DNA of 64,000 bases from Hyaloraphidium curvatum SAG 235-1 (lineage: Eukaryota; Fungi; Monoblepharomycota): assembly GCA_025558095.1 (NCBI GenBank), contig JAIVFI010000011.1, positions 744,001 to 808,000 of the forward strand, written 5' to 3'. Positions within the stretch are counted from its first letter, which is position 1. The number at the start of each line of letters is the position of its first letter. Shown in pieces: positions 10,631 to 53,479 of the stretch. The notes beneath the pieces are model-generated. The model had not been told where the DNA came from, did not search any database, and saw nothing but the letters and a program-made list of their open reading frames with translations. The position numbers were made by a program, and so were the translations under genes.

Positions 10631-10663
10631 ACGTCACGGTGAGTGTGGAAGGCAGCTGGACAG
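10631..10663 (+). repeat. Flanking direct repeat, copy 1 (33 bp ACGTCACGGTGAGTGTGGAAGGCAGCTGGACAG)
   Basis: Same sequence occurs at 16516-16550 and 16551-16586. Confidence 0.9.
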
Positions 10664-10901
10664 GATCCGGGGGATCTCGGCGCGGCACGGGGCGACGTGC
10701 GCTCGGGGGGTCTGGAGTGGCTCGCGTCGGGAACGTCTGATTGTACCGACCAACGGTGGGGAGTCTATTCGAGGGACAGGCATCCTTATATCCTGCTTTG
10801 CCACTGTGCGTCCTGCTCCGCCACGATGACGTCCCAATGACTCCTGAGTGTACCCGGTCCCAACCCATCCCAGCAATCGGAGCAAGGGCGTATCCGTAAC
10901 A
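10664..10901 (-). repeat. 3' LTR (starts TGTTACG on the minus strand; last ~22 nt missing)
   Basis: 10664-10891 is identical to 16291-16518 by eye. Follows the PPT. TATAA on the minus strand at 10786-10790. Confidence 0.93.
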
Positions 10902-10910
10902 CCCCCCCTC
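10902..10910 (-). other. Polypurine tract (GAGGGGGGG)
   Basis: Immediately precedes the TG start of the 3' LTR on the minus strand. Confidence 0.85.
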
Positions 10911-10923
10911 GGCCGCAGCTCCG

Positions 10924-12870
10924 TCAAAGCTTGAGACGAACAACGCCGAGTGCACGACGGGCCACATCCATGCGGGCTCCGGGGAGCGCCTTGGTGAGGA
11001 TATCGGCCGCGTTCTGCGCCGTAGGGACGTAGACCAGCTTGATCGCGTCGCGCTCGATCGCGTCGCGAAGGAAGAAGGACTTGATCGCCACGTGCTTGGT
11101 CGAGTCCTTCGAGGTAGGGGCCGCGGCCAGCGCGATCGCGCCGCGGTTGTCGCAGTAGATCACGGTGGGCTCCGTGACGGGCATGCCGATGGTGTCCAAC
11201 TTGTTCCGCCACGACAGGCCCTCCTTCGCCGCCATCACCACCCCGTGCAGCTCCGCCTCCGTCGAGCTCAGCGCGACCGTCTGCATCTTGCGCGAGATCC
11301 AGCTGATGGCTGCTCCGTTGTTGAAGAAGGCCAGGCCCGTCACCGACTTCCTGTCGTTGACGTCCGAGGCCCAGTCGGCGTCGGAGTACCCGTAGATCTG
11401 CCCCTTCCCTTGCGTGTACTTGATGCCGAAGTCGACCGTGCCGGCAAGGTAGCGCAGCAGCCGCTTGAGTGCTGCCCAGTGCTCCTGCCCGGGGTTGGTC
11501 ATGAACGCAGCCAGGTTGTGTACCGTGGAGACGATATCGGGGCGCGTCCCCTCCGCGAGGTACATGGCGAGCCCGACGCCCCTGGCGTACGGCTTATCGG
11601 CCATCGCGGCGCGCGCCTCCGGGGTCTGGGGGCACATGTCGAACGTGAGCACGCCCGAGTCCATGGGCGAGTTGACGGGCCGACAGTCCGTCATCCCGAA
11701 CTCCTCGAGCAGGTTGCGCGTGTATGTCGACTGGTCGATCGACGCCCACCCGTCCCCGCGGCGGATCCGCATCCCGACGATGAACTCGGGTTCGCCCTTG
11801 TCGGTGATGGTGAAGATCGACTTGAACTGGTTCTTCGCCTCGTCGAGGTACGCCCTGTCATTCGAGACCCAGAGCACGTCGTCGACGTAGATGGCTGCGA
11901 GGATCCACTTCCCGTCATCCGAATGACGGAAGTAGAGACAAGGATCTGCCGGCGAGTTCTCGAAGCCCATGCCCTGGAGGGTTCTGGCGGCCTCCTTCCT
12001 CGTCCTCAGCATGGCCTCCTCCTCCTGAGTCCCGTCGCCGCGCAGGGTGGCGTCCAGCTTGCGGTTCCACTCGTAGCCTGCCTGCCGGAGCCCGTAGAGC
12101 GGCCGAAGGAGGCGGAGCACGCCCCCCCTACCCGCAGCAGCCAAGAGCTCCTCGGTTTTGGCTTTCGTCGCGGCGTCAAGGTCGGGCTCCTTCAACACGA
12201 GCTCCAGGACCTGTGCGTAGCCTTCCGGCTCCCGCATGAACAGCAGTTCCTTCAGTTCGCCGAAGAGGTACGCCAGCTTCACGTCAGTGTGAGCGGCGTG
12301 GAGACTGGGATCGGCGAGGAGGGAAATGAGGAAGCGGATGGTGCTGAGCTTGGCCGTCGGAGCGAAGACCTCCTTGAAGTCGATGCCCTCCTTCTGCGTG
12401 AAGCCCTGCGCCACCAGCCGCGCCTTCTTCTTCTCCTCCGAGCCGTCCGAGTTGTACTTGGTCTTATTGGCCCATTTGCAGCCAATCGCGCGGCGTCCGG
12501 GCGGCAGCGTCGCCGCCTCGATGGTGTCGCGCTCAATGATGCCCCGGAGCTCGGCCACGAAAGCCTTCAGCCATGCCTCCCGGTGCGGGCCGGCCAGGGC
12601 TTCCTTGAAGGTGGGTTCCGGGTTCCCGATCTCGTCGACGTTCGCCACTCCGGCGAGCTCGACCGCGCGCTGCGCGGCGGAGGAGAGGAGGGCCGCCAGC
12701 CCGAGGTGGCTGGCCGCGAGGTGATCGTCCGGATCCACGTCTCCGTCCTCGTCGTCCTCCTTGATCGCCGAATGCTGGCGGTGAAGCTCCTCCCACTCGT
12801 CAAGCATGGATGATCCGTCGTTGATACGGCGCTGTCCGGCGCCGGCGCGGATGGAACGACGTGTTCCCCC
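10924..12870 (-). CDS. pol: Copia pol: reverse transcriptase + RNase H (-1 frame relative to the gag-IN ORF)
   Basis: EPTFKEAL, KKKARLVAQGFTQKEGIDF.EVFAP, LYGLRQAG..W, ADPCLY, IYVDD, GYSDADWA, SSTEAE, YCDN, ADILTKAL. Confidence 0.93.
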   Translation of the reverse strand, partial: GGTRRSIRAGAGQRRINDGSSMLDEWEELHRQHSAIKEDDEDGDVDPDDHLAASHLGLAALLSSAAQRAVELAGVANVDEIGNPEPTFKEALAGPHREAWLKAFVAELRGIIERDTIEAATLPPGRRAIGCKWANKTKYNSDGSEEKKKARLVAQGFTQKEGIDFKEVFAPTAKLSTIRFLISLLADPSLHAAHTDVKLAYLFGELKELLFMREPEGYAQVLELVLKEPDLDAATKAKTEELLAAAGRGGVLRLLRPLYGLRQAGYEWNRKLDATLRGDGTQEEEAMLRTRKEAARTLQGMGFENSPADPCLYFRHSDDGKWILAAIYVDDVLWVSNDRAYLDEAKNQFKSIFTITDKGEPEFIVGMRIRRGDGWASIDQSTYTRNLLEEFGMTDCRPVNSPMDSGVLTFDMCPQTPEARAAMADKPYARGVGLAMYLAEGTRPDIVSTVHNLAAFMTNPGQEHWAALKRLLRYLAGTVDFGIKYTQGKGQIYGYSDADWASDVNDRKSVTGLAFFNNGAAISWISRKMQTVALSSTEAELHGVVMAAKEGLSWRNKLDTIGMPVTEPTVIYCDNRGAIALAAAPTSKDSTKHVAIKSFFLRDAIERDAIKLVYVPTAQNAADILTKALPGARMDVARRALGVVRLKL

Positions 12871-15800
12871 CCTCGCCTCCTGGGGGTGGTCGTCTTGCGC
12901 CCCAGCATCCTGCCGATCATCCCCCCCGACCCCGAGGATTGCGCCCCAGCGGCGTCCGCGGGCGGAGAGGAGGGGGTCTCGTTGGCAGGGGCCGGGTTGT
13001 TGTCGCCGAAGACGACGCGCGGGCGCAGCGCCGGGTGCCCCTGCGTCGGCAGCGCGGGGAGGCGTACCGGCGGGATCACGCCCTCGTCGAAGACAGCAGT
13101 CTGGAAGTCCTTGTACGCCCCCGTCTTCGGGTCCGCAATCCGGAAGCCCTTCGTCCCCGGGGGAAAACCAACGAAGACGCCGGCGAAGCCGTGGGGGTCG
13201 AGCTTGTGCGGGAGCGTGCTGACCGGGATCCGCCCGACGGCGGGGCAGCCGAAGGCGGGGAGCTTGCCAAGCTTCGGCTTCTGGCCGTAGCGGGCTTCGT
13301 AGGGGGAGATGCCGCCGAGCGCGGCGTGGGGGGAGCGGTTTCCGAGCCAGTTGGCGTGGCGAACGGCGTGCGGCCAGAGGCGCTTCGGCAAGTTCGCATC
13401 CGTGAGCATGGTAAGCGCGCACTCCACGATGGTGCGGTTGTAGCGCTCGGCGATGCCATTCTGTGCCGAGGTGTTCGGTGCGGGAGTCTCCAGGCGTGCC
13501 CCCTTGTCCTCCAGATAGCGTCCCAGCTCCTCGTACTCACCGCCGCGATCGACGCGCGCAGCCTTGAGATTCCGCTCGCTTTCCGTCGCCCACTGCTTCG
13601 TCATCTTCTCGAAAGCCTTCGATGCGCCCGCCTTGCTGTAGTGCGTGATCAGATCCGCCCAGCGCGTGGCGTCGTCGATCGCCGTCGTGAAAACCTTGGA
13701 ACGATCGTGTCCCTCAACGCTCATGTCGCAGACATCCGAATGCACGAGATCCAAGAAGTCCCGCTCCTGTTTCTCCGCCGGCGGCATCGGCGCCTGCGTC
13801 AGTTTCCCTTGTGCGCAAGCGTAGCAGAAGCCGAGTTGCTGGCGGGTCCAGCCCGACGTGTCGACGTCAGCGAGGCCGTTCTTCCGCGCGATGTCATGCA
13901 TCCGGCCCTGGCTCATGTGCCCTAGACGGCGGTGCCACAGCTGGAATTCCTCGTGCTCGTCGAGCTTGACTGCGGGCAAAGCCTCCCCGGCCTCTGCCGA
14001 GGGTTTCGCGATGTAAGCCAGGATGGCGAACGACTTGCCGGGGGTTGAAAAGACAGCGCGCGGCTTCTTGTCGTCCTCGCGGCGGTAGATCTCACAGTAC
14101 GTGTGCTTGAAGGTGATCTTCTGGCCCTTCCTCGTCGCAAACTTGATGCTGAGTAGGTTGTACGCCAACTCGGGGACCACGAGGGTGTCGGGGAGCAGGC
14201 ACGGAACCCATCCGTCCTTCGATCTCGCCCAGATCACTGCGTCGCCGATCGCCGTGGCGGCAACCTGCGTCTTGTTGCCGAGGAAGACCTTCGATTCGAT
14301 GGGGCGCAGCGTTCCAGGCACGAAGCAATCCGTCCTGGGGGTCATGTGCGCCGTCGCTCCCGAATCGAGCTTCCAAACGTGCGCTCCGTTCCGAGAACTC
14401 TCCTCGAGATCGTCGGCCACGAGCGCGGTGTTGTCGGCCGTACCAGCCTCAGTAGGCGGCGCCCCTGCCGTCGGGCCCTCGCGCTTCGCCGCCTCCTCGG
14501 CGGGGAAACCCTGCTTGGGCACGATCGGGGCTCGTCCCGTCTTCACCTTCCCGCGCACGATCTCGGTCTCGTCCTCCGAGTCCGAGTCGATGTCCTCCAG
14601 AGGCGGCATCTCATTGTCCGCGACGGGGGCCGGGGAGGGGGTACTCTGGGCGCCATCGCCATTGTCGGTCGACGCGGTCGATTCCCGTCCAACCGACGCG
14701 TCCGAATCGTACAGGTGCTCATCGTCGGAGCTCCAGTTCTCGGCGTCGGAGGAATCAAGCGCGTCCTGAACCACGAACATGTCGGCCAGGGGATCGGCGT
14801 GAGCGGCGAGGAGCTCTTCCAGCTCGTCGTCATCGCCGGCGTCGTGCACGGCGATCAGGGAGAGTTGCTCTTCGTCGCTGCCACCGCCGGGCTGCGGAGG
14901 GGAGGGGCAGTTCTTCTTGATGTGCCCTGCGCCGCCGCAGTTGTAGCAGCGGACGGCGGCGGCGGGGCCCTGCCGCGGCGGCTTGCCGACGGTAGCCTTG
15001 CCCTTGTCGCCGTTCGCGGTCTGCTTCGGGGTTCCAGCGCCCTTGCCAGCTCCGTCGTTCTTGCGAGACGAAAGCTGCCGCTGGAGGGTGGTGACGAGCG
15101 CCTGGAGCTCGTCGTCCTTGAGATTCTTCGCATCCACGTCGCCGGTCGTCAGCTTCGCGGCTTCCTTCTTGGCGGCGGTGCCCGCGGGGGCCGGTCCAGC
15201 CTCAACGCGCGGGCGATCGCCTTGGGAAGCCTCCTCGTGACGGATGGCGAGCACAGCCCGGTCCATGGTGACCGGGATGCCTTGCGCGGCCGAAGTGCGG
15301 AGCATCTTGACCACCACGTCGTACTTCTTCTCCATCCCGCGCAGGAACAGCCTCAACTGCTCGTGATCGGGGCCGTAGCCGGGGTTGATGAGGCGCAGCG
15401 ACTCGGCGCTTTCGCGGATCCGATCGGCGAAAACCTCGATGCCCTCCCGCGGCTTCGGGGTCATGTTGGCGAAGTCCTGTAGCCAGATGTTCGCGTATTG
15501 CTGCGCCGTTGTGATGGCGTCCGCGGTGACGGCGTTGAACACCGCCTCGCATGCCATCATCCCGTCAAGGCGCATACGGATCGCATGGGTGTTGTCGACC
15601 GAGCGCCGGGCGATGCCCAGCGCCTTGCTGACGACTTTCTCGCGCTTCTCGAGCCTCGAGTCGAAAGACTCCCAGGCCTTCTGGATGGCGCTGATCTCGT
15701 TGGTCGACGACAGCCTTATCGACATGCCTTCGCGCTCATCAGGGCTGATCACCGTAAACGTCTCCACGTTCATCACTTCGCGGTACGCTCGGATCATCTG

Positions 15801-16082
15801 CGGGGTGGCGACGGCGATATCGACGCCGTCGCCTGCGGCGAGCTCCCGCAGGGCTTCGAGCCAGGTGTCCCGCATGTACGCGGGCTCGCGGGTGTAATCA
15901 GGCATGTTGAGCACGTATAGTCCCGGCCTCTCGAGCGGGGTTGGGATCGGAGCGGGCGTCCGCCGGTGGGCGTCAGCGACTTCGTTCACGCTCAGCGCAT
16001 TGGTGAGGCTGCGGAGCCAGGCAGGATAGTTCTTGCCGTCGTAACGGGCTCCGGTGTACGTGAAGGTGGTCGCCGATGCCAT
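12567..16082 (-). CDS. gag-pol: Copia gag-protease-integrase polyprotein
   Basis: Zinc knuckle CYNCGGAGHIKKNC, protease WKLDSGATAHM, WHRRLGH..CYAC, integrase LVHSDVC/RVDRGGEY/QNGIAERYNRT, SH3-like KLDP..GVFVGF. Confidence 0.93.
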   Translation of the reverse strand: MASATTFTYTGARYDGKNYPAWLRSLTNALSVNEVADAHRRTPAPIPTPLERPGLYVLNMPDYTREPAYMRDTWLEALRELAAGDGVDIAVATPQMIRAYREVMNVETFTVISPDEREGMSIRLSSTNEISAIQKAWESFDSRLEKREKVVSKALGIARRSVDNTHAIRMRLDGMMACEAVFNAVTADAITTAQQYANIWLQDFANMTPKPREGIEVFADRIRESAESLRLINPGYGPDHEQLRLFLRGMEKKYDVVVKMLRTSAAQGIPVTMDRAVLAIRHEEASQGDRPRVEAGPAPAGTAAKKEAAKLTTGDVDAKNLKDDELQALVTTLQRQLSSRKNDGAGKGAGTPKQTANGDKGKATVGKPPRQGPAAAVRCYNCGGAGHIKKNCPSPPQPGGGSDEEQLSLIAVHDAGDDDELEELLAAHADPLADMFVVQDALDSSDAENWSSDDEHLYDSDASVGRESTASTDNGDGAQSTPSPAPVADNEMPPLEDIDSDSEDETEIVRGKVKTGRAPIVPKQGFPAEEAAKREGPTAGAPPTEAGTADNTALVADDLEESSRNGAHVWKLDSGATAHMTPRTDCFVPGTLRPIESKVFLGNKTQVAATAIGDAVIWARSKDGWVPCLLPDTLVVPELAYNLLSIKFATRKGQKITFKHTYCEIYRREDDKKPRAVFSTPGKSFAILAYIAKPSAEAGEALPAVKLDEHEEFQLWHRRLGHMSQGRMHDIARKNGLADVDTSGWTRQQLGFCYACAQGKLTQAPMPPAEKQERDFLDLVHSDVCDMSVEGHDRSKVFTTAIDDATRWADLITHYSKAGASKAFEKMTKQWATESERNLKAARVDRGGEYEELGRYLEDKGARLETPAPNTSAQNGIAERYNRTIVECALTMLTDANLPKRLWPHAVRHANWLGNRSPHAALGGISPYEARYGQKPKLGKLPAFGCPAVGRIPVSTLPHKLDPHGFAGVFVGFPPGTKGFRIADPKTGAYKDFQTAVFDEGVIPPVRLPALPTQGHPALRPRVVFGDNNPAPANETPSSPPADAAGAQSSGSGGMIGRMLGRKTTTPRRRGGEHVVPSAPAPDSAVSTTDHPCLTSGRSFTASIRRSRRTTRTETWIRTITSRPATSGWRPSSPPPRSARSSSPEWRTSTRSGTRNPPSRKPWPARTGRHG

Positions 16083-16255
16083 GATGATGCGGGGGGCGAG
16101 CTTCGATGCGGGGCGCGGAAACTGCGGGTTGCGCGCTCGAGCGGGCAGGCGGTTCTCTCACGGGGAACTCGGCCGGACCGGTTGGAAGGGGCTCCGAAGA
16201 CGCTTCGGAGCCGAGTGAGTTCGAGTCAGACGACCAGTCGTCGAGCCGTGGGCTT

Positions 16256-16267
16256 GGGCTCATAACC
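16256..16267 (-). other. Primer binding site GGTTATGAGCCC (tRNA-iMet half-molecule type)
   Basis: Directly follows the ...GCTGACA end of the 5' LTR. Close to the Drosophila copia-type PBS GGTTATGGGCCC. Confidence 0.85.
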
Positions 16268-16518
16268 TGTCAGCGAGGGCAGCGCCGGGGGATCCGGGGG
16301 ATCTCGGCGCGGCACGGGGCGACGTGCGCTCGGGGGGTCTGGAGTGGCTCGCGTCGGGAACGTCTGATTGTACCGACCAACGGTGGGGAGTCTATTCGAG
16401 GGACAGGCATCCTTATATCCTGCTTTGCCACTGTGCGTCCTGCTCCGCCACGATGACGTCCCAATGACTCCTGAGTGTACCCGGTCCCAACCCATCCCAG
16501 CAATCGGAGCAAGGGCGT
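16268..16518 (-). repeat. 5' LTR (ends ...CA; first 10 nt missing)
   Basis: Identical to the other LTR over 228 bp. Reconstructed full LTR is about 261 bp with TG..CA ends. Confidence 0.93.
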
Positions 16519-18748: not shown

Positions 18749-19877
18749 ATGGCGTACCCGTGGATGTTTGCCGAGCGCATGGGCCTCGCCCCGCCGGCGC
18801 CGCCGAAGCCGCCGCGGCGCACGCTCCCCGCTCCGGGCTCCGCAGGATACCCGCGCACGGCGTCCTTCGAGGTGCTTCGCGCGTTGTCCCGGCAAATCGC
18901 GTGACTCACGCGTCTCTCCGCGCAATTAAATGCGATTTAGGACTAAGACGTCAACTGGGATTACTGCGAGGGCGGCCCGGCGCACCCGCTGCCGCGCGAG
19001 GGGTTCGGCAGCGTGTTCGGCCCCGCCGCGGGCGCGTCCCGTGCGGAGGGCACCGCGCAGGCGCGGAAGCTCCTCTCGCGGGCACGCAATGCGCTCAAGG
19101 ACGTCTTCACCTTGCGCCACCCGCAGGCCCGGAACGACGCGGACGTGCTGCCCGACGACGCGTACGAATACGTGCTGTCGGGAGGGCCGGTCGGCGCCGC
19201 CCCCGGGGCCGCGGCGTGCGCGTGGCTCGAGGCGTGCACCAGCGGCGACAAGGACTTCCCGCCGTGGGTCGTGCTTACCATGGGCCCCGGCATCGATGAG
19301 GCCACCAAGCGGGCGGCCAGCAACGCCCTGACCGCCGCGTTCCCGATGCTGGCCGAGGTCCCGCACCGCCGCATTGATCTCGGCGAGGTGCGCTTGGATC
19401 GCGGAGCTGGCAGCTTCCGCCTGTTTGCCACGACCGGGTTCGGCCCGCGCGAGGGGGAGCCCGGGTTCACGGGCATGGGCGAGCGGGCGAGCGAGACCAG
19501 TCTCGGCACCGTGCTCTCCCTCGTCGAGTCCCACGCAAACCTCGAGGTCGGAAGGGCGCTCATTAGCTACAGCAACGGCGAGATGGACCGGGCGGGCGTG
19601 ACCGTGGAGCTCGTCGGCGCGGCGGACGAGTGGCGCCGCTTCGGGATCGGCGCGGCCATGTGCCGCCAGGTCGAGCGGTTTGCCGCGCGCACGTTCAGAT
19701 GGGCGGAGGTGCTCCCCGTGCAGGTCAGCTACGTGACCAACCGGGGCGGCGGCGGGGATGTTCCTGGCGGCGGGGTTCCAGGACCAGGACGGGATGCTGG
19801 AGGAAATGGTAAAGATGGTGTACCCGGACGACGTGCTCCAGGGTGACGATTGGATCAACAACGACGAGGCCATGTAG
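18749..19877 (+). CDS. GNAT N-acetyltransferase-domain protein; 1-nt frameshift at 19743-19746; 5' exon structure uncertain
   Basis: Motif A VELVGAADEWRRFGIGAAMCRQVE. Removing one G gives motif B TNRAAAGMFLAAGF and a stop at 19877. Confidence 0.65.
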
Positions 19878-20195
19878 CTGTTCTGGCGAGCTCCATCCCT
19901 TTTCCGTTGTACCTCATCGAAGAGATTTCGTGGGCGTTGGGCCCCGATCTTGCGTGCCCGCCTTCGCAAGCACGATTCCGGCCCCGGCGCTTTGGGCGGA
20001 CCGTTTCCTGGACGGCTGTACTATCCCATCCGGGAAGCCTAGAGCGCGGCTCAATGCCTCGGTGGGATCGGCGGGTCGGGCATTCGCCCCATGGCTCAGC
20101 CGCACATGCACAGCACTGCTTAGCTCCGACAAGTTGAGAGAACATAAAGCCAGCGCGCGCACTCCACGGCAGCGCTGCTTCCTAAAGACAAAGAT

Positions 20196-21297
20196 ATGCC
20201 AACATACCTTTTCCTGTGGAACCCCGGACAAGTGGCCGTGGGACGAGCTGCCGCGCGACGCGGCCGAGGTCACGGCCACGGGATCCTTCAGGGGCCGCTG
20301 GTCCTGCGGGAACACCACCGCCATCCGCGAGAACGACCGGGCTTTCCTCCTCCGCGTCGGCAGCGACCAGCACAATCGGGGCATCGTCGGTTCCGGCTGG
20401 GTCGTGCGGGAGATGTTCTCGGAGCCGCACTGGGACGCCCGGCGCGCCGCGGCCGGGGACCTCGCCCACTACGTCGAAATCAGATGGGACGCGCTCCTCG
20501 TTCCGGGGACCGACCCGGTGTTCCCGCGGGGCACGCTCGAAGCCCCTCCATTGTCGGCCATGAACTGGTCGCAGCTCCGTTCGGGTGTCCGGATTCCGGA
20601 CGGAGTTGCCGACGCCCTTCAAACTGCCTGGGAAGCGCACCTGCAGGTCGCTCAACCGGCGATACCTCCAATCGAGGGAAATGCAGACGGCGGTGCGGGC
20701 GCTCCCGGGCCCGGCGACGGTGATCAACCGGGGAACGGACCTGCACAAGACGCCGACGAACACATGGAGGAACCGGACGCGGGCCAAGGGGGCTCTCAAA
20801 ACATTGGCGAAGATGCCGGGGATGACGACATGACCGACGACGACTCGGGAGCCGAAGACGACCCGTCACTTTCTGTGGTCGCCGACCTCCTGGATCAAGT
20901 CGGGCCGGCGGAGGGAGTGGCGCTGAGGAGGTACAGGCGGGGACAGAAGGCATTCCGCGTCAACGTCCTCGGCGTGGAATCACAGTGTCGCCTGACCGGA
21001 GTCAGCGACCCGGCCTTCCTGATCGCAAGCCACATCAAGCCGTGGAGGAGCTGCACCACCGACATCGAGAAGATGGACGGCAACAACGGGCTCATGCTCA
21101 CCCCCAGTGTGGATTGGCTTTTCGACAAGGGGTTCATCAGCTTCGAGGACGACGGGGAGGTGATTTGGTCCCCGCAGCTCGATCAGAACGTCAGGGAACG
21201 GCTGGGGTTGGGGGCTGTTCCGGCCAATGTTGGTCCTTTCAACGATCAGCAGCGCGGATACCTCAAACATCACCGCGAGAACGTGTTTAAGCCGTGA
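20196..21297 (+). CDS. EVE/PUA-like domain + acidic linker + HNH endonuclease (type IV restriction-like); 1-nt frameshift at 20222-20225
   Basis: Corrected N-terminus MPTYLFLWNPDKWPW..WSCGNT..I..NDRAFLLRVG....RGIVGSG.....HWD. C-terminus RRGQKAFR..V, CRLTG, LIASHIKPW, DGNNGLMLTP.VD.LFDKGFISF, YLKHHRENVF. Intronless. Confidence 0.85.
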
Positions 21298-21320
21298 TCA
21301 AGGGTATAAACTGGGTTTGC

Positions 21321-22420
21321 TCATTGTAATGGGTCTCTATGAATCTTTCGTCGCTTCGCCCAGTTTAACATCTCCGCCTCCGCATCATCCGCCGCCTCGT
21401 CCTCGAACTTGTAGAGGCCCAGCTCGGAAACCACCACGTCCGCGTACCTGCCGAGCACCGCCTCCTCGACCTTTGCCAGAGAAACTCGCTCGAGCGACGC
21501 CTGGCAGCCCGCGAGCACGAGCCGCTTTGCCGCAGGAAATTCAAGCCGCACGAGGACGAGCGTGATGCCGCCCGTCAGCTCGAGCTCCTCCAGCACGCCG
21601 AGCGGGGCGAGCACCCGCGACAGCGAGACGTGCGGGGGGATGGTGGTGAAGCTTTCCACGATGATCTTACGCGGTCGGAAGTCCGGGCTCGCAAAGAGCT
21701 TCCCGGCGTCCGGGAGCTCCCTGAACATCAGCGCGAGCGACGTCGCGCCGGATCGGAGGAGGGGCAACCACAGCAGGGTGTCGAAAAGGTCCTTGTGCCG
21801 TTCCCGGGCGTCGAGTTCCAGTGACAGCGCGCACCCCGTGGTCTCCACGACTGCAACGAACCCCGCAGCATCCCTGGGAAGCTCGCCCGCCCAGTACAGG
21901 TGCTTCAGCCCCGGCGGGAGCAGCACGCGCGGGCTGCGCCGGCCCTGCTTCGGGCGGCGGACGGTGCGGTCCACCCTGAGCCTGTCGAGGCGCTTCATCC
22001 CGGAAACGAGCTCGAAGACGGGCTTCTCGTCCTCCCACCCCAGGCCCAGCTCGAGCTCCCGCAGGTTGCAAAAGAGCATCGTATGGGCCAGGCTCAGCCG
22101 GGGGCCGCCGAGGTTCGCTCGGCGCACGAGGTTGGCGTGCTTGAGCGCCGTCCGCATGAAGGACGGCGCCGACGCGTGCGCCGCAGTGATACGGGAGTAC
22201 AGCACGGGCAGAGCGAGGTCGTGGATCTCCCTGCAGGCGAGGGAACATTCCAGGATGGTCCTTTTGCAGCCCATCGCCTCGAGGAGCAGGAAGACATCGC
22301 GGAGGAGGTCCAGCGGAAGAGCCTGAAGAGCGGGGCCACAGTCCTCGCCGGGCCCGTCCCCGGATCCGGGTTCCGCATGGGATTCCTCAGTCCCTGTGCT
22401 GGAGCTATCCGACGCGTCAT
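21321..22420 (-). CDS. F-box/LRR family member 1 (start codon out of frame by 1 nt)
   Basis: ALPLDLLRDVF...KRTILECSLACREIHDLALPVLYSRI; LF.SPDFRP; LxxLxL repeats. Confidence 0.7.
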
Positions 22421-22576
22421 CACAGGCTGATAAGCGGAAAAAAATGATTGACAGGCAAAATGGAACTGGTGAAGATGGCCGCAGCCCGCCACATCGACTC
22501 GTCGCGCCGATCGAATCACCGCCCGCCCGGCGGGGTAGAGCGGGCCGGCGAGCGCGTTTCCGCCCACTTTCGCCCG

Positions 22577-23673
22577 ATGAGCTCGGTCGAAGACGCGTCG
22601 CCAGGGCCCGCTGACGGGTCCGGTGCCCCGGATCCGAGGGTAGCCGACCCCGCCGATGGCGGTCCCGCCTTGCCGCCCGAGCTGATTCGCATGGCCCTCT
22701 CCGAGCTGGACGCGATGCACTGCAAGAGCACTATTCTGGAGTTCGCCCTCGCGTCCAAGGAGGCGTACGACCTCGCGCAGCCCGAGCTCTACGCGCGCAT
22801 CTGCACCGAAGACACCCTGGTCCCATCCTTCTTCGCGGCGGCCCGGAAGCACGCCAACCTCGTGAGGGACCTTGATCTGGGCCGAGCTTCCGGTCTCCCC
22901 CGCATCACTGCGTGCCTGGCCCTTTCGGGGCCCTGCGCTCGCTCCGCATCTACGCCGAGGGCGATTCGGAGGACCTCGCGCTCCAGCTGATCCCGGGGCT
23001 CGCGAACCTGGAAGCCCTCGACCTCGACTATTCGACGGAGGACGACGAAGATGTGCTGTTGGCCCTGCCAGCCGGCATCAGATCCGTCAAGCTCGTAACC
23101 AGGTTCCCTCGGGACGCGGATGCTTTCGCTGCGGCCTTCGAAGCTCTTGCGGGCCTGGAAGCATTGGAGCTGCACACTTGGAAGACGCTCCCGGGCGCTT
23201 TCGAGCCCTTGCTCCGGCTGCAATACGTCGTTTCGGCGCTCAGGACCGTGGGCCTGCACGCCGAAGAGCTGCAGCACGCGGAGGGACTGTTCCGGAGCCC
23301 GGCCTTCCGCCCGCGGAAGATCAAGCTGGACTTTATCGGGGGTTACTCTCCGCCGGCCGTCCCCGAGTCCGTTTCGAGCATCCCCGGCCTGTGCGAGCTC
23401 GAGCTGATGGACGGGATGACGTCGTTCCTTCGCGAGGCCAACCTCCCCCCCGCGGAAACCCTCACGATCGTTTCTTTCGAGGCATCCCTGGACGAGGACG
23501 AGCTCCCCCGCGTCGAGGAGATGCTCCGGGCCGAGTACGCCGGCGTCGTCGTGCGGGAGCTGCAGCGTGCCCCCGAGGAGGACCGGGCCGAGGCCGCGGA
23601 GGCCGAGCTGGCCATGTGGAGGAGGGTAGCCGGGGCGCAGGTCGGCTTTGCGATTGCGGACGACGACTTTTGA
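22577..23673 (+). CDS. F-box/LRR family member 2 (frameshift at ~22923)
   Basis: GPALPPELIRM..KSTILEFALASKEAYDLA.P.LYARI; LFRSPAFRP; AELAMWRRV. Confidence 0.75.
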
Positions 23674-23869
23674 TGGTTGATGGAGGACATGTCGAAGTAC
23701 GTCTTCCCGGAGGACGTGATCAACCGGTATGGGTTTTACTGGGCGACGGAATCGACACGGGCCACGGAGACTGGCGAATCGCCATGAGGTGCACGTTGTA
23801 TCTTGAGTTTTGGAGCAGTCAGATTACACAGGTCCGCACCTGACTTCCGACTAACGCCCGCTCCCTCCC

Positions 23870-25270
23870 TCACTTGCCGACGCGGATCAGCTTCTTGTTG
23901 ACAAACTCCTCGATGCCGTAGCGCCCCAGCTCGCGCCCGAACCCGGACCGCTTGACGCCGCCGAAGGGCAGCTCGGCGCCGTCGGCACCCACGACGTTGA
24001 CGAACACCATGCCGGCCTCGATCTGGTCGGCCACCCGCGCGGCCTGCTCCTTGTCGGTCGTGAAGAGGTACGACCCCAGCCCGAACGGCGTGTCGTTGGC
24101 CAGCTCCACCGCCTCATCCTCGTTCGCCACCTTGAACACCTGCGCGACGGGGCCGAAGAGCTCCTCGCGGAAGGTGCGCGGCACGCCCGTGAGCACGCCG
24201 GGGGGGAAGAAGGCGCCCTTGCGGTCGCCCTTGCTGAGCAGCTTGGCGCCCTCGGCCACGGCGCGGTCGACCTGCGAGGCCAGGCGCTCCGCGGCCAGCA
24301 TCGACGAGAGCGGGGGGAGGGTGCCGGCGGTGCCGAGGACCTTCTCGGAGAACTTGGAAAGGAAGGCGTCGTACAGGCTCTCGTGCACGATGAAGCGCTT
24401 GCCGGCGTTGCAGGCCTGGCCCGTGTTCTCGAACCGCGCCGCGACGGCGGCCTCGACGGTCGCGTCCAGGTCGTCGGTCGAGAGCACGATGAAGGGGTCC
24501 GAGCCGCCGAGCTCCAGCACGACCTTCTTGAGGTTGCGCCCGGCGATCTCGGCCACGGCCGCGCCGGCGCGCTCCGAGCCCGTCAGCGAGACGCCCTGGA
24601 TGCGGGGGTCGGCGATGAGCTTCGCGATCTGCTCGTTGGTCGCGTAGACGTTGTTGTAGCAGCCGGCGGGGTAGCCGGCATCGTCGTAGATCTTTTGGAT
24701 GGCGGCGGCGGATTCGGGGCACTGCGGCGCGTGCTTGAGCACGACCGTGTTGCCCAAAGCGAGGTTGGGGCCGGCGAAGCGGGCCACCTGGTAGTACGGA
24801 TAGTTCCAGGGCCTGATCAGGGAAGGGCGGCGACGGATCAGCGGGGTGAGATGGAGCGGCGACCGAGAAACCCACATGATGCCGAGGATGGTGCCGACGG
24901 CGGTGCGGCGGATCACGGCGGTCCCCTCGCCGCCCAGCAGCTCGATGGGCTCGTCGGCCAGGAACTTCTCCGCGTTGTCGCCGTAGTAGTCGTAGATGGC
25001 CACGCAAAAGTCGACCTCGCCCAGGGCCTGGTCGAGCGGCTTGCCCATCTCCTTGTTGATGATCCCGGCCAGCTCATCCCGGCGCTCGGCGTGCAGCGCG
25101 GCGACCTTCTTGACGAGGGCGGCGCGCTCGGCGACGGTGGTCTTTTTGGACCACGTCTTGTAGGCGCCGGCGGCGGCGGCGAGCGCCTCCTCGAGCTGCG
25201 CGTCGGTGGCGGTCGGGTACGTCTTGACCGTCTGGCCGGTCGCGGGGTCGACCACGGCGTATCCGCTCAT
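23870..25270 (-). CDS. NAD(P)-dependent succinate-semialdehyde dehydrogenase (Sad/GabD1-type ALDH); intron 24813-24875
   Basis: IMPWNYPYYQVARFAGPNL, KHAPQCP, LTGSERAG, LELGGSDP, NTGQACNAGKR, EELFGP, PFGGVKRSGFGRELG. Confidence 0.93.
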   Translation of the reverse strand: MSGYAVVDPATGQTVKTYPTATDAQLEEALAAAAGAYKTWSKKTTVAERAALVKKVAALHAERRDELAGIINKEMGKPLDQALGEVDFCVAIYDYYGDNAEKFLADEPIELLGGEGTAVIRRTAVGTILGIMWVSRSPLHLTPLIRRRPSLIRPWNYPYYQVARFAGPNLALGNTVVLKHAPQCPESAAAIQKIYDDAGYPAGCYNNVYATNEQIAKLIADPRIQGVSLTGSERAGAAVAEIAGRNLKKVVLELGGSDPFIVLSTDDLDATVEAAVAARFENTGQACNAGKRFIVHESLYDAFLSKFSEKVLGTAGTLPPLSSMLAAERLASQVDRAVAEGAKLLSKGDRKGAFFPPGVLTGVPRTFREELFGPVAQVFKVANEDEAVELANDTPFGLGSYLFTTDKEQAARVADQIEAGMVFVNVVGADGAELPFGGVKRSGFGRELGRYGIEEFVNKKLIRVGK

Positions 25271-25718
25271 CTGTGACGCCGAAACAATCGTAAACGAAAG
25301 TCCAGGAACACGTCTGCGGTGTCCGCGGAGCGCGATGGCGGCGGCGACGCGTCGTCGGGGAACACCGCCCGCAAGTCGAGCGACGCCGCCCATCGGGGCC
25401 CACATCGCGACGTGCGCCGTCTGGGGCCGACGATACCGACCTTGGCAGGCACAATGGACGGCACGGAGTCGGGGCTTGAGGGCAGACGGTCGCTTTGGCG
25501 CGGGAACTGGCGCGAGAGTCGCTTGCTGCCGCTCCGCCCGGATCGCCGATCAAAAGAAGGGCGGCTGTGCGGCCGGACGCCGGACACCTCGAATCATGTG
25601 ATCGTACCTCGGCAATGGCCTGAACTCAAGAGGAGCTATGGATGGAGACCGGGATCGGTACTGGATGCGGTCTCAAAGATGGACACCTGCGTTCGCGACC
25701 GTGGCGCTGGTTGACGAT

Positions 25719-26804
25719 CTACCCAAACTCGACATCCACGACTTGCAAGTTCCCGTCCGTGATCCTCCTCCACATGGCCACCTCCGCGACGTCGGCGTGC
25801 CTGCCGTGAGTGCGGAGCCCCTGCAAGACGATCGCGCTGTACTTGCTGCGCAGCATCGCCTCGACGCCGCCGAGGTCCGGTTCGGGAAGCGACGCGTTGA
25901 AGTAGTGGATGGAAAGAGTTTGGGCGGGGGGAAGGCCGGGCACCAGGATGACGGATGTTGCGCCGAACGTCAGATGGAGCTCGCCGAGCCCGCTCAATGC
26001 GGAAAGGGACCCGGGGATGATCCAGGGGATTTCCACCACACGAAAGTCGATCTTGATGGCCCAAGGCTGGAAATCCGGGCTCCGAAACAGGCCGTCCGCG
26101 TGGTGCAGGTCATTGGAGCGTAGACCGAGGGTCCGGAGTGCCGACACGACGTGATTCAGGGGCAGCAGAGGATCAAATGCCCCCTCGAACAAACCATAAG
26201 TGTCGAGATCGAAAACGATCAGGCTCGTGAGGGGCTCCAAGGCCGCAGCGAAAGCTGCAGCATCCCGAGGGAACTCCGTTTCCAGCTGCAGGGAACGGAG
26301 GCCAGCAGGCAGAGCCAAGCGCAGCTCGCGGCTGGTGAATGGCATGAAGTAGATTTGAAGGAGCTCCAGATTCTCCAGTCCGGGGATCAGCTTCCATGCC
26401 ACGTCATCCCAATCGCCCACGGCGCGTACGCGGAGCGAGTGCAGGTCATCAAAAAGGGCCAGGCACGCTGTGACGCGGGATTCGCTGGACTTTCCGCTGC
26501 GCAGATCGAGTTCCCGGACGAGGCTTGCGTGCTTCCGAGCGCTCGAGAAGAAGGCCGGAGCCTCGGTGTCTGCGGTGCAGATGCTCGCGTAGAGCACGGG
26601 CAGCGCGAGATCCTACACCTCTTTGGAGGCGAGGGCTAACTCCAGAATAGTGCGCTTGCAGTGCTTCGCGTCCAGCTCGGCGAGGACCATGCGAATCAGT
26701 TCAGGAGGCAGGGCCGGACCGTCGTCCGCGGCCGCAGCTCCGGACGTCTCGGGGGCCGCAGACACGTTGCCGGTCCCGGCCGACGCGTCTTCGATCGAGT
26801 TCAT
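25719..26804 (-). pseudogene. F-box/LRR family member 3 with an in-frame TAG at 26613-26615
   Basis: Close paralog of member 2 (GPALPPELIRM..ASKEV*DLALPVLY). The paralog has Tyr at this position. The rest of the frame is open to AEVAMWRRIT. Confidence 0.7.
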
Positions 26805-26931
26805 CAGTACAATAACGGAAACGGGGGCTCGCAGGTGGTTCTTCGGGCAGTGATTGTCGGCGCCTGTGCAGGTGAGTCGAGTGGTTGCCGCGTTTTCGGC
26901 ACCTATTCCACAACTCTCCGCGCGCCGTCTA

Positions 26932-32275: not shown

Positions 32276-33431
32276 ATGGACCCCTCCAGCTCGCCCGAAC
32301 TGCCCGAATACGACGACGCGCCTTCGTGGAGCAGCCTTCTGGCGGCGCTCGCGGCCGAGCCGGCGCTCGCAGCTCGGTTCGCGGAGGGCCGCGATAGGCG
32401 CAGCCGCTTCAGATCGCTCAGGACCATCGGCCGCGGCTCCGAGGGCTCGGTGAGGTGTGCCCTCTCGCTGGACACCGGGGAGCTGGTCGCCGTCAAGGCG
32501 TGCCGGAAGCCGGCCGCGCCCGAGCCCAGCCGAGCGCTGGTCCGCACGCCCTCGGCGGAGGCCGCGATCGTCGACCGCGCGCGCGTCTCGGACGAGCTGC
32601 GGCGGCGGTTCGAGGCGCTGCAGGCGCTGGAGCACCCCAACCTCGTTCGAATGCTCGAGCAGTTTGAAACCGAATCGCGGGTGTACACTGTGACCGAGCT
32701 CTGCGAGGGGGTGGGTCGCCGGCGGCAATCTTACATCGCTCGGTCATCTGACCTTCCTATGTGTTGTTTAGGACCTGGCAGCCTTCCTCGAGGCCCGCGA
32801 AGACCGCCGGCTCCCCGAGCACCTCATCCGGCCCATCCTCCTCGCCGTCCTCCGAGCCCTCTCTCACCTGCACGCCCACGGCATCGTGCACCGCGACCTC
32901 AAGCCCTCCAACATCCTCCTCCGCACCTTCTCGAACCCCGCTGACCTCTGCCTGGCCGACTTTGGCTCCGCCAAGGTCCACGACCCCACCTCGGAGGACC
33001 ACCGCATGAAGACACTCGTCGGCACTCCCTTCTACATCGCCCCCGAGCTCATCCAAGGCCTCCCCTACGGCCCCGAGGTGGACCTCTACCCCCTGGGCGT
33101 GATCGCCTTCGAGCTCGCCTGCGGGTCGCACCCCTTTGCCGGCGCCGCCGGCTTCGCGGACCTGTACGCGCGCGCCGCCCGCGGGGACTGGGAGTTCCCC
33201 CCCGGCGTCGGCAGCCCCGAGCTGCGGGACCTCGTGCGCGGGCTGATGCGGGCGGACCCGGCGGCGAGGATGGGGTGCGCGGCCGCCGCCGCGCACCCGT
33301 TCTTCGCGGGGCATGCGGGGGCGCAGCGGGCGAGGCCGAGGATGGCGAGGGAGATGTCGGGGACCGCGGTGACGTGGAGCGCGGAGGCGAGGGAGCTGCG
33401 GCCCGCGGAGACGGTCGCGGCAACGGGGTGA
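32276..33431 (+). CDS. CAMK-group Ser/Thr kinase 1; intron 32711-32771
   Basis: IGRGSEG, VAVK, HPNL, HRDLKPSNIL, ADFG, GTPFYIAPE. Confidence 0.9.
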
Positions 33432-35457: not shown

Positions 35458-36602
35458 ATGGACGCGGCATCGACCGAGTCCAAACTCTCCGACGCGTCCG
35501 ATGCCGCGGAATCGGCCGCCGGCGGAGCGGAGGAGGACGGGCCGGCGCTGCCGCCCGAGATTCTGTGCATCGTGTTTTGCATCCTGGACGACGCCGGCTG
35601 CAAAGCCAGCCTCCTGGAGTGCGCCCTCGCGTCGAAAGCGACAAAGGAACTTGTTTTTCCCGTTCTTTTTGCGCGCATCAAATCCAGGCACGTCTGGACG
35701 TCTTCGTTCCTGGACGCCGCCGCCCGAAAGCACGGCCACCTGGTCCAGATGGCGGATATGAGCGAACGATACCTAGGCCGCGAAGGGACGGTAGCCTGCC
35801 TCGCTTTCTTTGGAAATCTCCGAAAACTCGATCTGGCCGCGGATTGGGAAGACGACGGCTTCTTCCTGCGGCTCGTTTCGAGCATGGAGAAACTGGAGAA
35901 GCTCACGGTGCGCTCTGCCGAGAGCCGCCACGGCCATCCGAACCCGCCCATTTGTCTGCCACCGGCGCTGAAGTTCCTGACCTGGACGGGTCTGGTTCCC
36001 GACAGGGGATCCAAGCTCGCCGCGGCGCTCGGGCCCGCCCGGCAGCTGCGATGCCTCGAGTTGGACGCTTTCCACACCTCGGAGGACTTTTTCAACCGCC
36101 TCGTCCCTCTGGGCCGGGTCGTAGCGGCCACAACTGTCCTTTCCCTGCCGCGGAACGAGCTCGTCTTTGCCGACGCACTTTTCCGCAGCCCCGAGTTCGC
36201 GCCGTCCAGGCTCTACGTTGGCCAGTACTGGCGCCCCGAGGATGACGACGGTGACGAGGACGGTCCGACGGTGCTTCCGCCTTCCCTCTGCGCCCTGAAC
36301 GGACTGGAGGTGCTCGAGCTGAGCGGCTTTCGTTCTTCGTTCCTCGCCGAGCAGGGAAGCGGGCTGCCGCCGGCAAAGGAGCTCGTGCTCAAGAGCTTGT
36401 CGGCGGACCTGCGGCCGGACGAGCTGGCTCCCGTGGAGGCCATGCTTGGGAAGAAGTACGGAAGCGTCGCCGTCTCTCCTCCGGGACATGGAGCACCGGG
36501 GTGGACGCTGCGGAAATGGACATGTGGAGGAGGGTGACGAGCGGGCGGACCACGCTTCATGGACCGCCACCCCGCCCTGCTCGTCGCTCGGCAATGGTAT
36601 AG
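35458..36602 (+). CDS. F-box/LRR family member 5 (frameshift near the C-terminus, ~36480-36500)
   Basis: GPALPPEILCIVF..KASLLECALASK; LFRSPEFAP. The family tail AAEMDMWRRVTSGR lies in another frame. Confidence 0.75.
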
Positions 36603-45387: not shown

Positions 45388-46427
45388 ATGCAATCTGACG
45401 AAAACGGGCCGTCGGTGGCGGACGCCATGCCGGGGCCGGGATCCGCGGGCGATGCGGACCCGAGGTGCTCTGCTTGGTCTTCCGCGTGCTGGACGGGACG
45501 GGCGCCAAACGGACGCTTCTGGAGTGTGCCTGTGCTTCCCATGCTCTGAACGACCTCGCCCTCCCCGTCCTGTACGAGCGGCTGAGTCCCGTGGACGCGC
45601 ATTTCCCTTCCTTCATGCCCGCCGCCCAGAGGCACGCCCACCGGGTGCGGCACCTCGAGCTCGACCGCGACAAACTGCATCTCGTGCGCTTCGTCGCCTG
45701 CATGGCCCTCTGTCCATCGCTGCGCAGCCTGCAGCTCAGGCTCGGGCTGCAAGTGTACACGGAAGGGCTCTCTGTGTTGCTCGAGCTCGTCGGGGGCATG
45801 CGCGACCTCGAGCGCCTCGAATTTCACGTCACGCAGCTGAGCGCGGAAGCTTTGTCGCGCGTCATTCTGCCTCCGAGGCTGAAGGAGCTCGTCATTGCCG
45901 GCGGGGTGCCCAGCGATTCGACTTCACTGGTATCGGCCATGGACTGTCTGACCGACCTGAAACGCCTGACATTCCAGATCGGGGGAGATTCGGGAAATTT
46001 CTCGGAGCGTGTTTCTGAAGCGCCGCACGTTGTGTCCGTCGTCAAACAGGCCGCCTTTTACCAGCGCGAAGTGCAGAAGGCTGACGTGCTGTTTCGCCAC
46101 CCGTGCTTCCGACCTGAATCGCTCGTCCTTCACATGGGCAACGGCGAAGATGGAATCCCGCCGTCGGTTGCCTCAGTCAAGGGCCTGAACTTGCTGCACA
46201 TCCTGGCCTGCCGGACGTCGGTCCTCGCCTCCCCCCTGCCCCCCGCGGAGTTCCTCCGCTCGACCGACGTGCGCGCGGACCTCGAACCGGATCAGCTGCC
46301 GGCCGCCGAGCGCACCCTGGAAAGGTATTCACGCGTGAGGGTGTGGGACATATTCTTTGCGCGGGGCGAGGGATCGGCTGCCGACAAGGCGGAGAGGGCC
46401 ATGTGGGGGCTGGAGAAGCGAGAATAG
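45388..46427 (+). CDS. F-box/LRR family member 6 (1-nt shift at ~45460)
   Basis: PEVLCLVF..KRTLLECACASHALNDLALPVLYERL; LFRHPCFRP; AERAMW. Confidence 0.75.
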
Positions 46428-46795: not shown

Positions 46796-47957
46796 TCAGT
46801 GATCCATGCTGTCACTTCGGCCCCGTGTTCGAGGTTCCAAGATCGCGTCGTTGCTCCGGCAGCCCGATCGCGCCTTTCCGCCGTTCACATCCGCCTTGGC
46901 CGCCTTGGCTGCGGCCAGCAACTCCTCCTTGACGATCTCCAACACACCGAGGAAGCTCCCTCCCCTGGATCCCCGCGAGATGAAGTCCTCGAGATCGATC
47001 TTGGGGTACTCCTTCGCCTCGCCCCCTTCCCCGCAGATGACCAGCGCCGTCCCCCTGCACTCCTCGTCCTCGATCAGCCTCATCACCGCGGCCACGACGG
47101 CTTCCATGGGTGTCCACCAGCCGCCCATCGGCAGCGCGTGCCTCCAAAGGGGGTGCTTGGCGACTTCTTCTGGCGTTGTCCCGGCGCCGATTTTCGTCAT
47201 GATCGGGGTGAACACCGCGCCCGGGCAGATGGCCCCCGTCCGGATCGGCGACCGTTCCAGGCCGGCCTGCCAGGCGCGGGTTTCGAGGTCGCCCTGTAGC
47301 GCGGCGCAGAAGGAGATGATGCCAGCTTTGGCCACATGGTCTGCACGCCGGGGTAAGCATCCGTCGGCACCCTGCCGCCGCGCCGTGCTACCAACAGGAA
47401 TAGCCCTGCTGGGACCACTTGTTGTAGATCCCGTGCATGCCGGCCAGTGAGGAGTTGGCAATAAAGACGCCCGCGGTGCCCCCGTTTAGCCAGTGGTTGG
47501 CCGCGGCCTTGGCGAGCATCATGGTGCCGTACAGGTTGCCGTTGATGGTGTTGATGCTCGCCTCGTCGGGGCCCTCGAGGAAGGAGAGCTCGGCGCCGTA
47601 CCCGGCGTTGGCAAACACGATCTCGCAGCTCCCCAAAGCGTCGACCGCCGCGGTAAATGCCGCCTTGCACGAGGCGAGGTCGTTCAGATCCATCCTGGTG
47701 AACCGCGCGCGGCCCTCGCCGTGCTTCTCCGCGAGGCGGGGGAGCACCTCGGCCGCGAGCGCCTCGTTGCGGTTGGCGATCATGACGCCGCGGCAGCCCT
47801 TGGCGAGAAGCTCCTCGACGACGGCGAGGCCTATTCCCTGGCCAGGCCGGGGAAGGGCGTCGGCGGTACGTCCCCGCGGCGGGATCCGGGGCGGCGAATC
47901 GCGTACCTCCGTGCCTCCCGTCACCAGCGCGACCTTGTCCTTCACGCTGAACACCAT
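46796..47957 (-). CDS. SDR (15-hydroxyprostaglandin dehydrogenase-like), copy 1; 2 introns; stop lost
   Basis: VTGGTEGIG, FANAG, NSS, YHVAK, ICPGAVFT. Confidence 0.85.
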
Positions 47958-48156
47958 TTCCGCGGACGGGGTGCGCTCACGTTCGGAATGGCAAGGGGGG
48001 ACAGACCGGATTCCAACGAAGGTTCCGTCCGTGGGCTGGTCCGAATCCACGCCGCACCAGTCAACCGGCAACTATCGCAACGTACGAACCCAACAGAGAC
48101 CAGGATTAACCAGCGCCTCTTAAGCGGCTGGTGGTATACATGCGTCCATCGACCCC

Positions 48157-53368: not shown

Positions 53369-53479
53369 TCGGGACTCAGGGACTGATCATCCGGGTGCCA
53401 GAAGAACGAGACAGGATCGTGGACATGACCGGGGTCCGGCGAAGGAAATAGAGTGACATGCGCAAATAGCCCGATCGTG

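What the first reader, a model, noticed from the sequence alone, without database searches (positions are those of the whole stretch)
20196..21297. Bacterial-type EVE/PUA-HNH modification-dependent restriction endonuclease in a eukaryotic genome
Seen: an intronless gene that, after removing one C from a C4 run, reads MPTYLFLWNPDKWPW...WSCGNT...GIVGSG (EVE/PUA-like reader), then an acidic linker, then an HNH domain with apparently intact catalytic residues (ASHIKPW, NGLML, D.LFD). It sits among intron-containing eukaryotic genes. Known: PUA-superfamily reader-HNH fusions such as the EVE-HNH VcaM4I are prokaryotic type IV enzymes that cut modified (5mC/5hmC) DNA. Inference: a horizontally acquired defence nuclease, possibly against modified viral or bacterial DNA, or used in transposon control.
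Basis: partly seen in the sequence, partly recalled or inferred. Interest (0 to 1): 0.8.

Follow-up and report, generated by a model that had tools for sequence, protein, structure and literature searches.

The report
Disabled bacterial restriction enzyme in fungus
A likely fungal nuclear genome carries a transcribed gene for a bacterial-type DNA-cutting enzyme, predicted to recognise chemically modified DNA, but one extra base near its start breaks it, so it is likely a recently disabled relic of a rare transfer of bacterial defence into a eukaryote.

Summary
Read across one extra C (20222-20225), 20196-21297 encodes an EVE-fold reader, an acidic disordered linker and a VcaM4I-like HNH domain with all four active-site residues. 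Named relatives are prokaryotic, plus one giant-virus entry. The gene lies in eukaryotic chromosomal DNA, not a contaminant. The same reader subfamily is fused to McrB in McrBC operons, which supports modification sensing. It is not the VcaM4I-type EVE, so the base it reads is unknown. The extra C appears real: an RNA contig carries it unspliced. Neighbouring accessory genes carry similar one-base lesions of both signs, and 7 of 8 F-box/LRR copies look broken. That points to general decay, not programmed frameshifting. The protein still keeps 68 of 71 family-conserved residues, the gene has host-like codon use and there is no bacterial flanking DNA. Best reading: a horizontally acquired type IV restriction gene, probably kept working for a time and now a transcribed pseudogene in this strain. 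An active eukaryotic defence nuclease remains possible in relatives but is not shown.

The parts
20196..20222 (+).
   Evidence: Matches the N-terminus of reader homologs; strand E3-8 in the model of homolog P0330
20222..20225 (+). C4 run holding the +1 frameshift at codon 10
   Evidence: Sequence; carried without a gap by RNA contig X1, which has 14 genomic plus 22 adapter letters to its left, and by DNA contig X2 starting at 20220
20224..20649 (+). Rest of the EVE-like (PUA superfamily) reader, a subfamily distinct from the VcaM4I EVE
   Evidence: VIA-align Z 10.5 to 2ar1 (rmsd 2.9, 128 aligned) and 9.6 to 2eve; homolog P0330 Z 12.9; 25 of 27 conserved positions kept
20650..20862 (+). Acidic low-complexity linker, predicted disordered
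   Evidence: 21 D/E and 0 K/R in 72 aa, GC3 0.61; pLDDT below 50 for residues 155-212 of P0001; longer and more acidic than in directly fused homologs
20863..20898 (+). Predicted helix before the HNH domain, in the position of the auto-inhibitory linker helix of VcaM4I (inferred)
   Evidence: Helix 214-225 in the model; role in VcaM4I from PMC7897488 section 22
20905..21297 (+). VcaM4I-like HNH (HNH_2) nuclease domain with H279, N297, D306, D310, and the stop codon
   Evidence: Pfam; phmmer to 6yex E 2.4e-31; 43 of 44 conserved positions kept
20196..20723 (+). ORF actually opened by the first ATG: 175 aa, out of frame after codon 10
20413..21297 (+).
20208..21312 (+). Stretch covered by one unspliced RNA contig
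   Evidence: + strand inferred from adapter orientation
20232..20280 (+). Hairpin starting 6 nt after the C4 run (weak lead for recoding)
   Evidence: z -2.7, 4th strongest of 110 windows along the gene; 12 of 1000 synonymous controls fold as well

Best explanation
This is a transcribed, frameshifted gene for an EVE-like reader fused to an HNH nuclease, likely acquired from a prokaryotic modification-dependent (type IV) restriction system, likely kept functional in this eukaryote's lineage for a time and then recently disabled. Intact, it is predicted to work like VcaM4I: a dimer whose reader flips a modified base into an aromatic pocket, which lifts inhibition by the linker and lets the HNH domains cut nearby DNA. 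The base it reads is unknown. In this strain the extra C sends ribosomes that start at the ancestral ATG out of frame at codon 10. The lesion looks like one of many replication-slippage hits in local accessory genes. Shown: sequence, frameshift, transcription, conserved residues, prokaryotic relatives. Predicted: fold. Inferred: transfer, past function, mechanism, present inactivity.
For: Origin: 6 of the 119 non-self hits listed carry an organism name, and all six are bacteria. 16 of the 120 listed are named: 14 bacteria, 1 archaeon, 1 viral metagenome, no eukaryote. The HNH is 60% identical to an Azospirillum protein. The query falls among prokaryotic and metagenomic rows in four trees. Function of the family: the same reader sits in McrB next to McrC on two plasmids examined, and is fused to HNH_2 and to McrA-like HNH. 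Location: a DNA contig bridges the HNH 3' end to the next gene (21237-21761), and DNA depth is about 5-6 like the flanks. Lesion: present in RNA. Similar lesions are bridged by contigs in the GNAT-like gene (+1, 19743-19746), an F-box/LRR gene (-1, about 22923-22925) and another F-box/LRR gene (TAG, 26613-26615). 7 of 8 F-box/LRR copies look broken. Past selection: 25 of 27 reader and 43 of 44 HNH conserved positions are kept, and the leave-one-out reader score ranks 22nd of 39. No second lesion. Codon use scores host-like (+0.023 on GC-ending codons; host genes -0.024 to 0.080; 13 bacterial genes -0.009 to -0.051). No other bacterial gene, sigma-70 promoter or terminal repeat flanks it.
Against: Conserved residues cannot separate selection inside the eukaryote from recent capture from an unsampled donor. 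No eukaryotic ortholog or paralog was found, so dN/dS could not be computed. The codon test is weak and mixed: proline is CCG 15 to CCC 1, which is bacterial-like. The C4 run is not bridged by 31 genomic letters on both sides, contigs drop rare variants, and the runs may come from the strain that was assembled. No contig bridges the 5' junction (gap 20148-20207). The trees name no donor. No activity was tested.
Confidence: 0.55

Rival explanations
1. Dead on arrival: a bacterial gene was captured recently, never served the eukaryote, is transcribed from a fortuitous promoter, and may have survived only because the frameshift made it harmless.
For: Single copy and no eukaryotic relative found. 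Bacterial-like proline codons. A review argues that restriction enzymes are counter-selected in eukaryotes (PMC11249213 passages). It lies in a region where broken genes persist.
Against: Nearest known relatives are only 47% (reader) and 60% (HNH) identical. There is no flanking bacterial DNA. It is a discrete transcribed unit. Codon use is host-like overall. The linker is expanded and acidic, unlike direct bacterial fusions.
Confidence: 0.25
2. Programmed +1 ribosomal frameshifting at CCC-GGA gives a small, safe amount of full-length nuclease.
For: GGA is rare in host genes (15 of 308 Gly codons). A hairpin starts 6 nt downstream. Everything downstream is intact. The GNAT neighbour's +1 site also follows AAC-C.
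Against: Local lesions include -1 shifts and a stop, which no single recoding rule explains. The hairpin is not exceptional: three stronger windows lie in the same gene. No ortholog is available to show a conserved shift site.
Confidence: 0.08
3. The 294-aa product from the ATG at 20413 (half reader, acidic linker, HNH) is the working form, a nuclease restrained by the acidic linker and no longer modification-dependent.
For: The RNA contig begins at 20208, after the first ATG. The HNH is intact. In VcaM4I the linker helix alone restrains the HNH.
Against: Contigs cannot show a transcript start. A half domain is unlikely to fold.
Confidence: 0.07
4. Artefact: a bacterial contaminant joined into the assembly, or a homopolymer error in an intact gene.
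For: The 5' junction is not bridged, and the C4 run has only 14 genomic letters on its left in the RNA contig.
Against: The 3' junction is bridged and depth matches the flanks. Composition matches the window. Contigs assembled from two studies carry C4.
Confidence: 0.04

Closest known systems
VcaM4I (TspA15I group) EVE-HNH type IV restriction endonuclease, PDB 6yex
   Same: Domain order reader-linker-HNH; HNH E 2.4e-31 with H224/N241/D250/D254 conserved; best structural match overall
   Different: Long acidic linker. Frameshifted. Eukaryotic host. Specificity unknown.
   Same: Same reader subfamily, up to 47% identity; same fusion to HNH_2 in many members
   Different: They have continuous frames and 24-78 aa linkers when directly fused; none is known to be biochemically tested
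THYN1/Thy28 and 2eve EVE proteins; YTH domains
   Same: Fold: Z 8.8-10.5 to EVE structures and about 8 to YTH for the query model
   Different: 13-18% identity to EVE structures; these are stand-alone readers with no nuclease
Katablepharid mitochondrial HpaII-like restriction-modification system (PMC8099122, abstract)
   Same: Bacteria-derived restriction nuclease in a eukaryote
   Different: Type II with a cognate methyltransferase, mitochondrial, shown functional; this one is nuclear, type IV-like and broken
Crinkler-associated HNH_2 proteins of fungi and oomycetes (recalled; only a search listing seen)
   Same: Pfam HNH_2 in a fungus-like genome
   Different: No Crinkler N-terminal domain was detected; the closest relatives are prokaryotic at 50-60% identity

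Membership tests
EVE domain (PUA superfamily) | EVE beta-barrel fold | tested here: met
   Query model Z 10.5 to 2ar1 and 9.6 to 2eve; intact homolog P0330 Z 12.9, top 18 hits all PUA-like
EVE domain (PUA superfamily) | Pfam PF01878 sequence match | tested here: inconclusive
   No hit for the query; 7 of 23 aligned proteins hit at E up to 0.05; homologs P0356 and P0275 pass the curated cut-off
VcaM4I/TspA15I group | HNH with H, N, D, D active-site residues and Ser before the His | tested here: met
   S278, H279, N297, D306, D310
VcaM4I/TspA15I group | Reader of the VcaM4I EVE clade | tested here: not met
   Profile A3 matches 6yex only at 171-308; BLAST to a homolog with the VcaM4I-type reader aligns only the HNH
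VcaM4I/TspA15I group | Pocket residues P24/W82/Y130 for 5mC/5hmC | not tested
   No residue-level superposition was available; invariant W8, W35 and W124 are candidate pocket residues (inference)
Type IV (modification-dependent) restriction endonucleases | Cleavage depends on a modified base | not testable with these tools
   Indirect support only: reader fused to McrB in McrBC operons
Type IV (modification-dependent) restriction endonucleases | No cognate methyltransferase beside the gene | tested here: inconclusive
   None among the 28 window translations scanned with Pfam; L001 and L002 ORF lists read by eye only
Type IV (modification-dependent) restriction endonucleases | Continuous frame joining reader and nuclease | tested here: not met
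   +1 frameshift at codon 10 in genome and RNA contig
Crinkler HNH_2 effectors | Crinkler N-terminal domain and kinship with fungal HNH_2 | tested here: inconclusive
   No such Pfam hit, but no Crinkler sequence was in the trees

The most novel reading that the evidence does not exclude
The frameshift is a strain-specific hit, and wild relatives encode an active nuclear-encoded type IV restriction enzyme, with a new EVE reader and an acidic DNA-mimic linker as a brake, used against modified DNA of giant viruses or bacteria. It would be a working restriction-type immune enzyme in a eukaryotic nuclear genome.
Probability: 0.3. Interest if true: 0.82.

Novelty: new variant of a known kind. Interest (0 to 1): 0.45.

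Why it matters
[quoted passage not shown] A transcribed type IV-like gene in a nuclear genome tests that idea either way. If relatives keep it intact, eukaryotes can domesticate modification-dependent restriction. If it is always broken, it records the barrier in action. Giant viruses persistently infect zoosporic fungi, and their integrated DNA differs from host DNA in 6mA and CpG methylation (PMC13533422, passages), which gives a plausible target. As it stands in this strain the gene is most likely a pseudogene, which caps the interest.

Tried and rejected
No whole genome is held for this window, so paralogs were judged only from protein searches, where P0003 is a one-member cluster. Splicing as a repair: seven GT/GC-AG candidates restore the frame on paper, but none appears in the RNA contigs, and each would remove or scramble conserved Trp residues. 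An upstream in-frame start: the frame is open from 19813 (1.1% of shuffles) but has no ATG before 20413. Mobile-element signature: no convincing terminal repeats or target duplications; no Rfam hit. A giant-virus MAG has the HNH with a VcaM4I-type reader at 21% GC and does not group with the query, but the AU test did not reject such a grouping (p 0.149), so this route is unsupported, not excluded. Other strains: the metagenome scan gave 8 distant HNH loci only, and the exact-pattern scan of viral contigs gave 0. The region-limited homolog search was uninformative. Trees: 135-153 columns, no starred group holds the query. Near-duplicate rows were dropped, and several long-branch rows. Host methylation: no CpG depletion in the window or the copia element, which does not identify the host's marks. 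No run is on record as RNA; X1 was judged RNA from its spliced intron. Earlier scan findings: none.

Full report
Observation. The ATG at 20196 opens MPTYLFLWNP, runs into a C4 tract at 20222-20225 and continues out of frame to a stop at 20723. The next frame, 20224-21294, is open and holds the rest of the gene. Skipping one base joins them into 366 residues. The first ten residues belong to the gene: among 38 non-redundant homologs of the N-terminal domain, W8 is kept in 38, N9 in 33 and P10 in 36, and the best homolog aligns from residue 1 at 47% identity. The public protein for this locus starts at the next in-frame ATG, 20413, and has 294 residues (P0003).

Nuclease domain. It matches Pfam HNH_2 at E 1e-10 and VcaM4I (PDB 6yex) at E 2.4e-31. 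The VcaM4I paper names H224, N241, D250 and D254 (PMC7897488, sections 19, 21, 22 and passages read). These align to H279, N297, D306 and D310 here. Of 44 positions conserved in at least 85% of 132 homologs, 43 are kept.

Reader domain. Pfam does not call it in the query. The model of the window's frame (mean pLDDT 81) matches EVE structures: Z 10.5 to 2ar1, 9.6 to 2eve, 8.8 to THYN1 with DNA, and about 8 to YTH domains. An intact stand-alone homolog gives Z 12.9 to 2ar1 in a search of 48,161 chains. Seven of 23 aligned proteins hit Pfam EVE weakly and two homologs pass its cut-off. So it is an EVE domain, but not of the VcaM4I clade: a profile of the subfamily hits 6yex only in the HNH. The subfamily is a mobile sensor. 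It is fused to HNH_2, to McrA-like HNH, and to McrB upstream of McrC on both plasmids I opened, out of six plasmid hits. It was found in 4 of 401 genomes sampled from one phylum. Bell et al. describe such fast-evolving EVE domains in type IV systems and note that some may read bases other than modified cytosine (PMC7641849, passages). The target base is therefore open. The query keeps 25 of 27 conserved reader positions and ranks 22nd of 39 in a leave-one-out score.

Linker. It has 21 acidic and no basic residues in 72, is predicted disordered, and is longer and more acidic than in directly fused homologs (97 aa against 24-78). In VcaM4I the linker helix blocks the active site, and removing it makes a toxic non-specific nuclease. 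An acidic brake here is an inference.

Origin. Six of the 119 non-self hits listed and 16 of the 120 carry organism names: bacteria, one archaeon and one viral metagenome entry, no eukaryote. The exhaustive search of 1.84 billion representatives gave no close relative; those hits are unnamed. Four trees place both domains among prokaryotic and metagenomic rows without a supported sister. No eukaryotic HNH_2 was available as a contrast. A giant-virus copy of the HNH exists but has another reader and 21% GC; its grouping with the query is neither found nor rejected (p 0.149).

Location and expression. The host is a eukaryote: run X1 skips a GT-AG intron at 24812-24874, a copia element with identical 229-base LTRs lies at 10663-16518, and a permease is nearest to fungal clusters. 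A finer lineage was not established. A DNA contig bridges the gene's 3' end to its neighbour, at the depth of the flanks; the 5' junction is not bridged. One RNA contig covers 20208-21312 with no gap or mismatch and so carries C4. It has only 14 genomic letters plus 22 adapter letters to the left of the run, short of the tool's 31-letter rule, and the runs may be from the assembled strain. Adapter orientation (adapter identity recalled) points to a + strand transcript; the same logic gives the right strand for two neighbours. Contigs give no expression level or start site.

Context that changes the reading. The neighbours are broken too. The GNAT-like gene upstream (weak Pfam hit) shifts +1 at 19743-19746, splitting a GNAT motif (motif recalled). 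One F-box/LRR gene shifts -1 near 22923-22925. Another has TAG at 26613-26615 where its paralog has Tyr. All three are covered by ungapped contigs. Of 8 F-box/LRR copies in the window, 7 lack an unbroken frame; five lesions, four of them outside the laid stretch, have no RNA check, so introns are not excluded there. Lesions of both signs and a stop argue for decay of accessory genes, not one recoding rule. They also mean that the nuclease's lesion need not reflect selection against it, and may be recent and strain-specific.

Was it ever functional here? For: a single lesion, near-complete conservation at 40-55% divergence from the nearest known relatives, no bacterial flanks or promoter, its own transcript, and host-like codon scores. 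Against: an unsampled donor explains the conservation equally well, proline codons look bacterial, and no eukaryotic ortholog was found. I put past function followed by loss at 0.55 and dead on arrival at 0.25. Recoding (0.08) has a rare GGA codon and a hairpin in its favour, but the hairpin is only the fourth strongest in the gene. A working truncated form (0.07) and artefact (0.04) are minor.

Literature and novelty. The protein works like, but is not a member of, the VcaM4I group (Lutz et al., PMC6765204, abstract and sections 14 and 25). A review says restriction enzymes are undocumented in eukaryotes apart from one anecdote (PMC11249213, passages). A known case is a mitochondrial type II system in a protist (PMC8099122, abstract); I did not confirm that this is the review's reference. 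Iyer et al. describe prokaryotic methyltransferases and readers acquired by eukaryotes, and the passages seen name no eukaryotic EVE-HNH (PMC4738411). Searches listed no report of a nuclear EVE-HNH in a eukaryote; I saw listings and selected passages only, no supplements, and the library lacks most subscription papers. Verdict: a new variant of a known kind, interest 0.45. The bold reading, an active nuclear type IV enzyme in wild relatives, has probability 0.3.

Noticed in passing
window 18926-26860, also about 35460-36560, 45388-46427, 53500-54100, 60600: Dense single-base frameshifts and a nonsense codon in accessory genes: 7 of 8 F-box/LRR copies and the GNAT-like gene look broken, mostly in mononucleotide runs; three are confirmed in RNA contigs. 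This may reflect a mutator or long-cultured strain, or birth-and-death of the family.
   Followed up: partly
window 23870-25300 (- strand): Aldehyde (succinate-semialdehyde) dehydrogenase 71% identical to Tsukamurella and Rhodococcus proteins, with a spliced intron at 24812-24874, a second skip in the 5' region and GC3 0.97: a likely domesticated actinobacterial transfer 2.6 kb from the nuclease. Only plasmids were searched.
   Followed up: partly
window 10663-16518 (- strand): Ty1/copia retrotransposon with identical 229-base LTRs, so a recent insertion, with a frame change between integrase and reverse transcriptase near 12700.
   Followed up: no
L053:3001-3354 (giant-virus MAG; same protein as P0343): A giant-virus contig at 21% GC encodes a full VcaM4I-type EVE-HNH, a candidate viral type IV restriction enzyme.
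   Followed up: partly
proteins P0004, P0124, P0163: Prokaryotic or metagenomic HNH proteins carrying two different EVE readers in tandem (this subfamily plus a VcaM4I-type), possibly sensing two modifications.
   Followed up: no
L014 and L016: The same reader sits inside a long P-loop NTPase-like protein (L014) and a McrB-like protein (L016); judged by eye from the translations.
   Followed up: no
window 19813-20223 (+): The nuclease's frame stays open for 137 codons upstream of the C4 run without an ATG (1.1% of shuffles); probably chance.
   Followed up: partly
window 46863-47969 and 52267-53373; 32335-33411 and 61943-63024: Two pairs of duplicated genes (short-chain dehydrogenase, 77%; protein kinase, 73%).
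   Followed up: no
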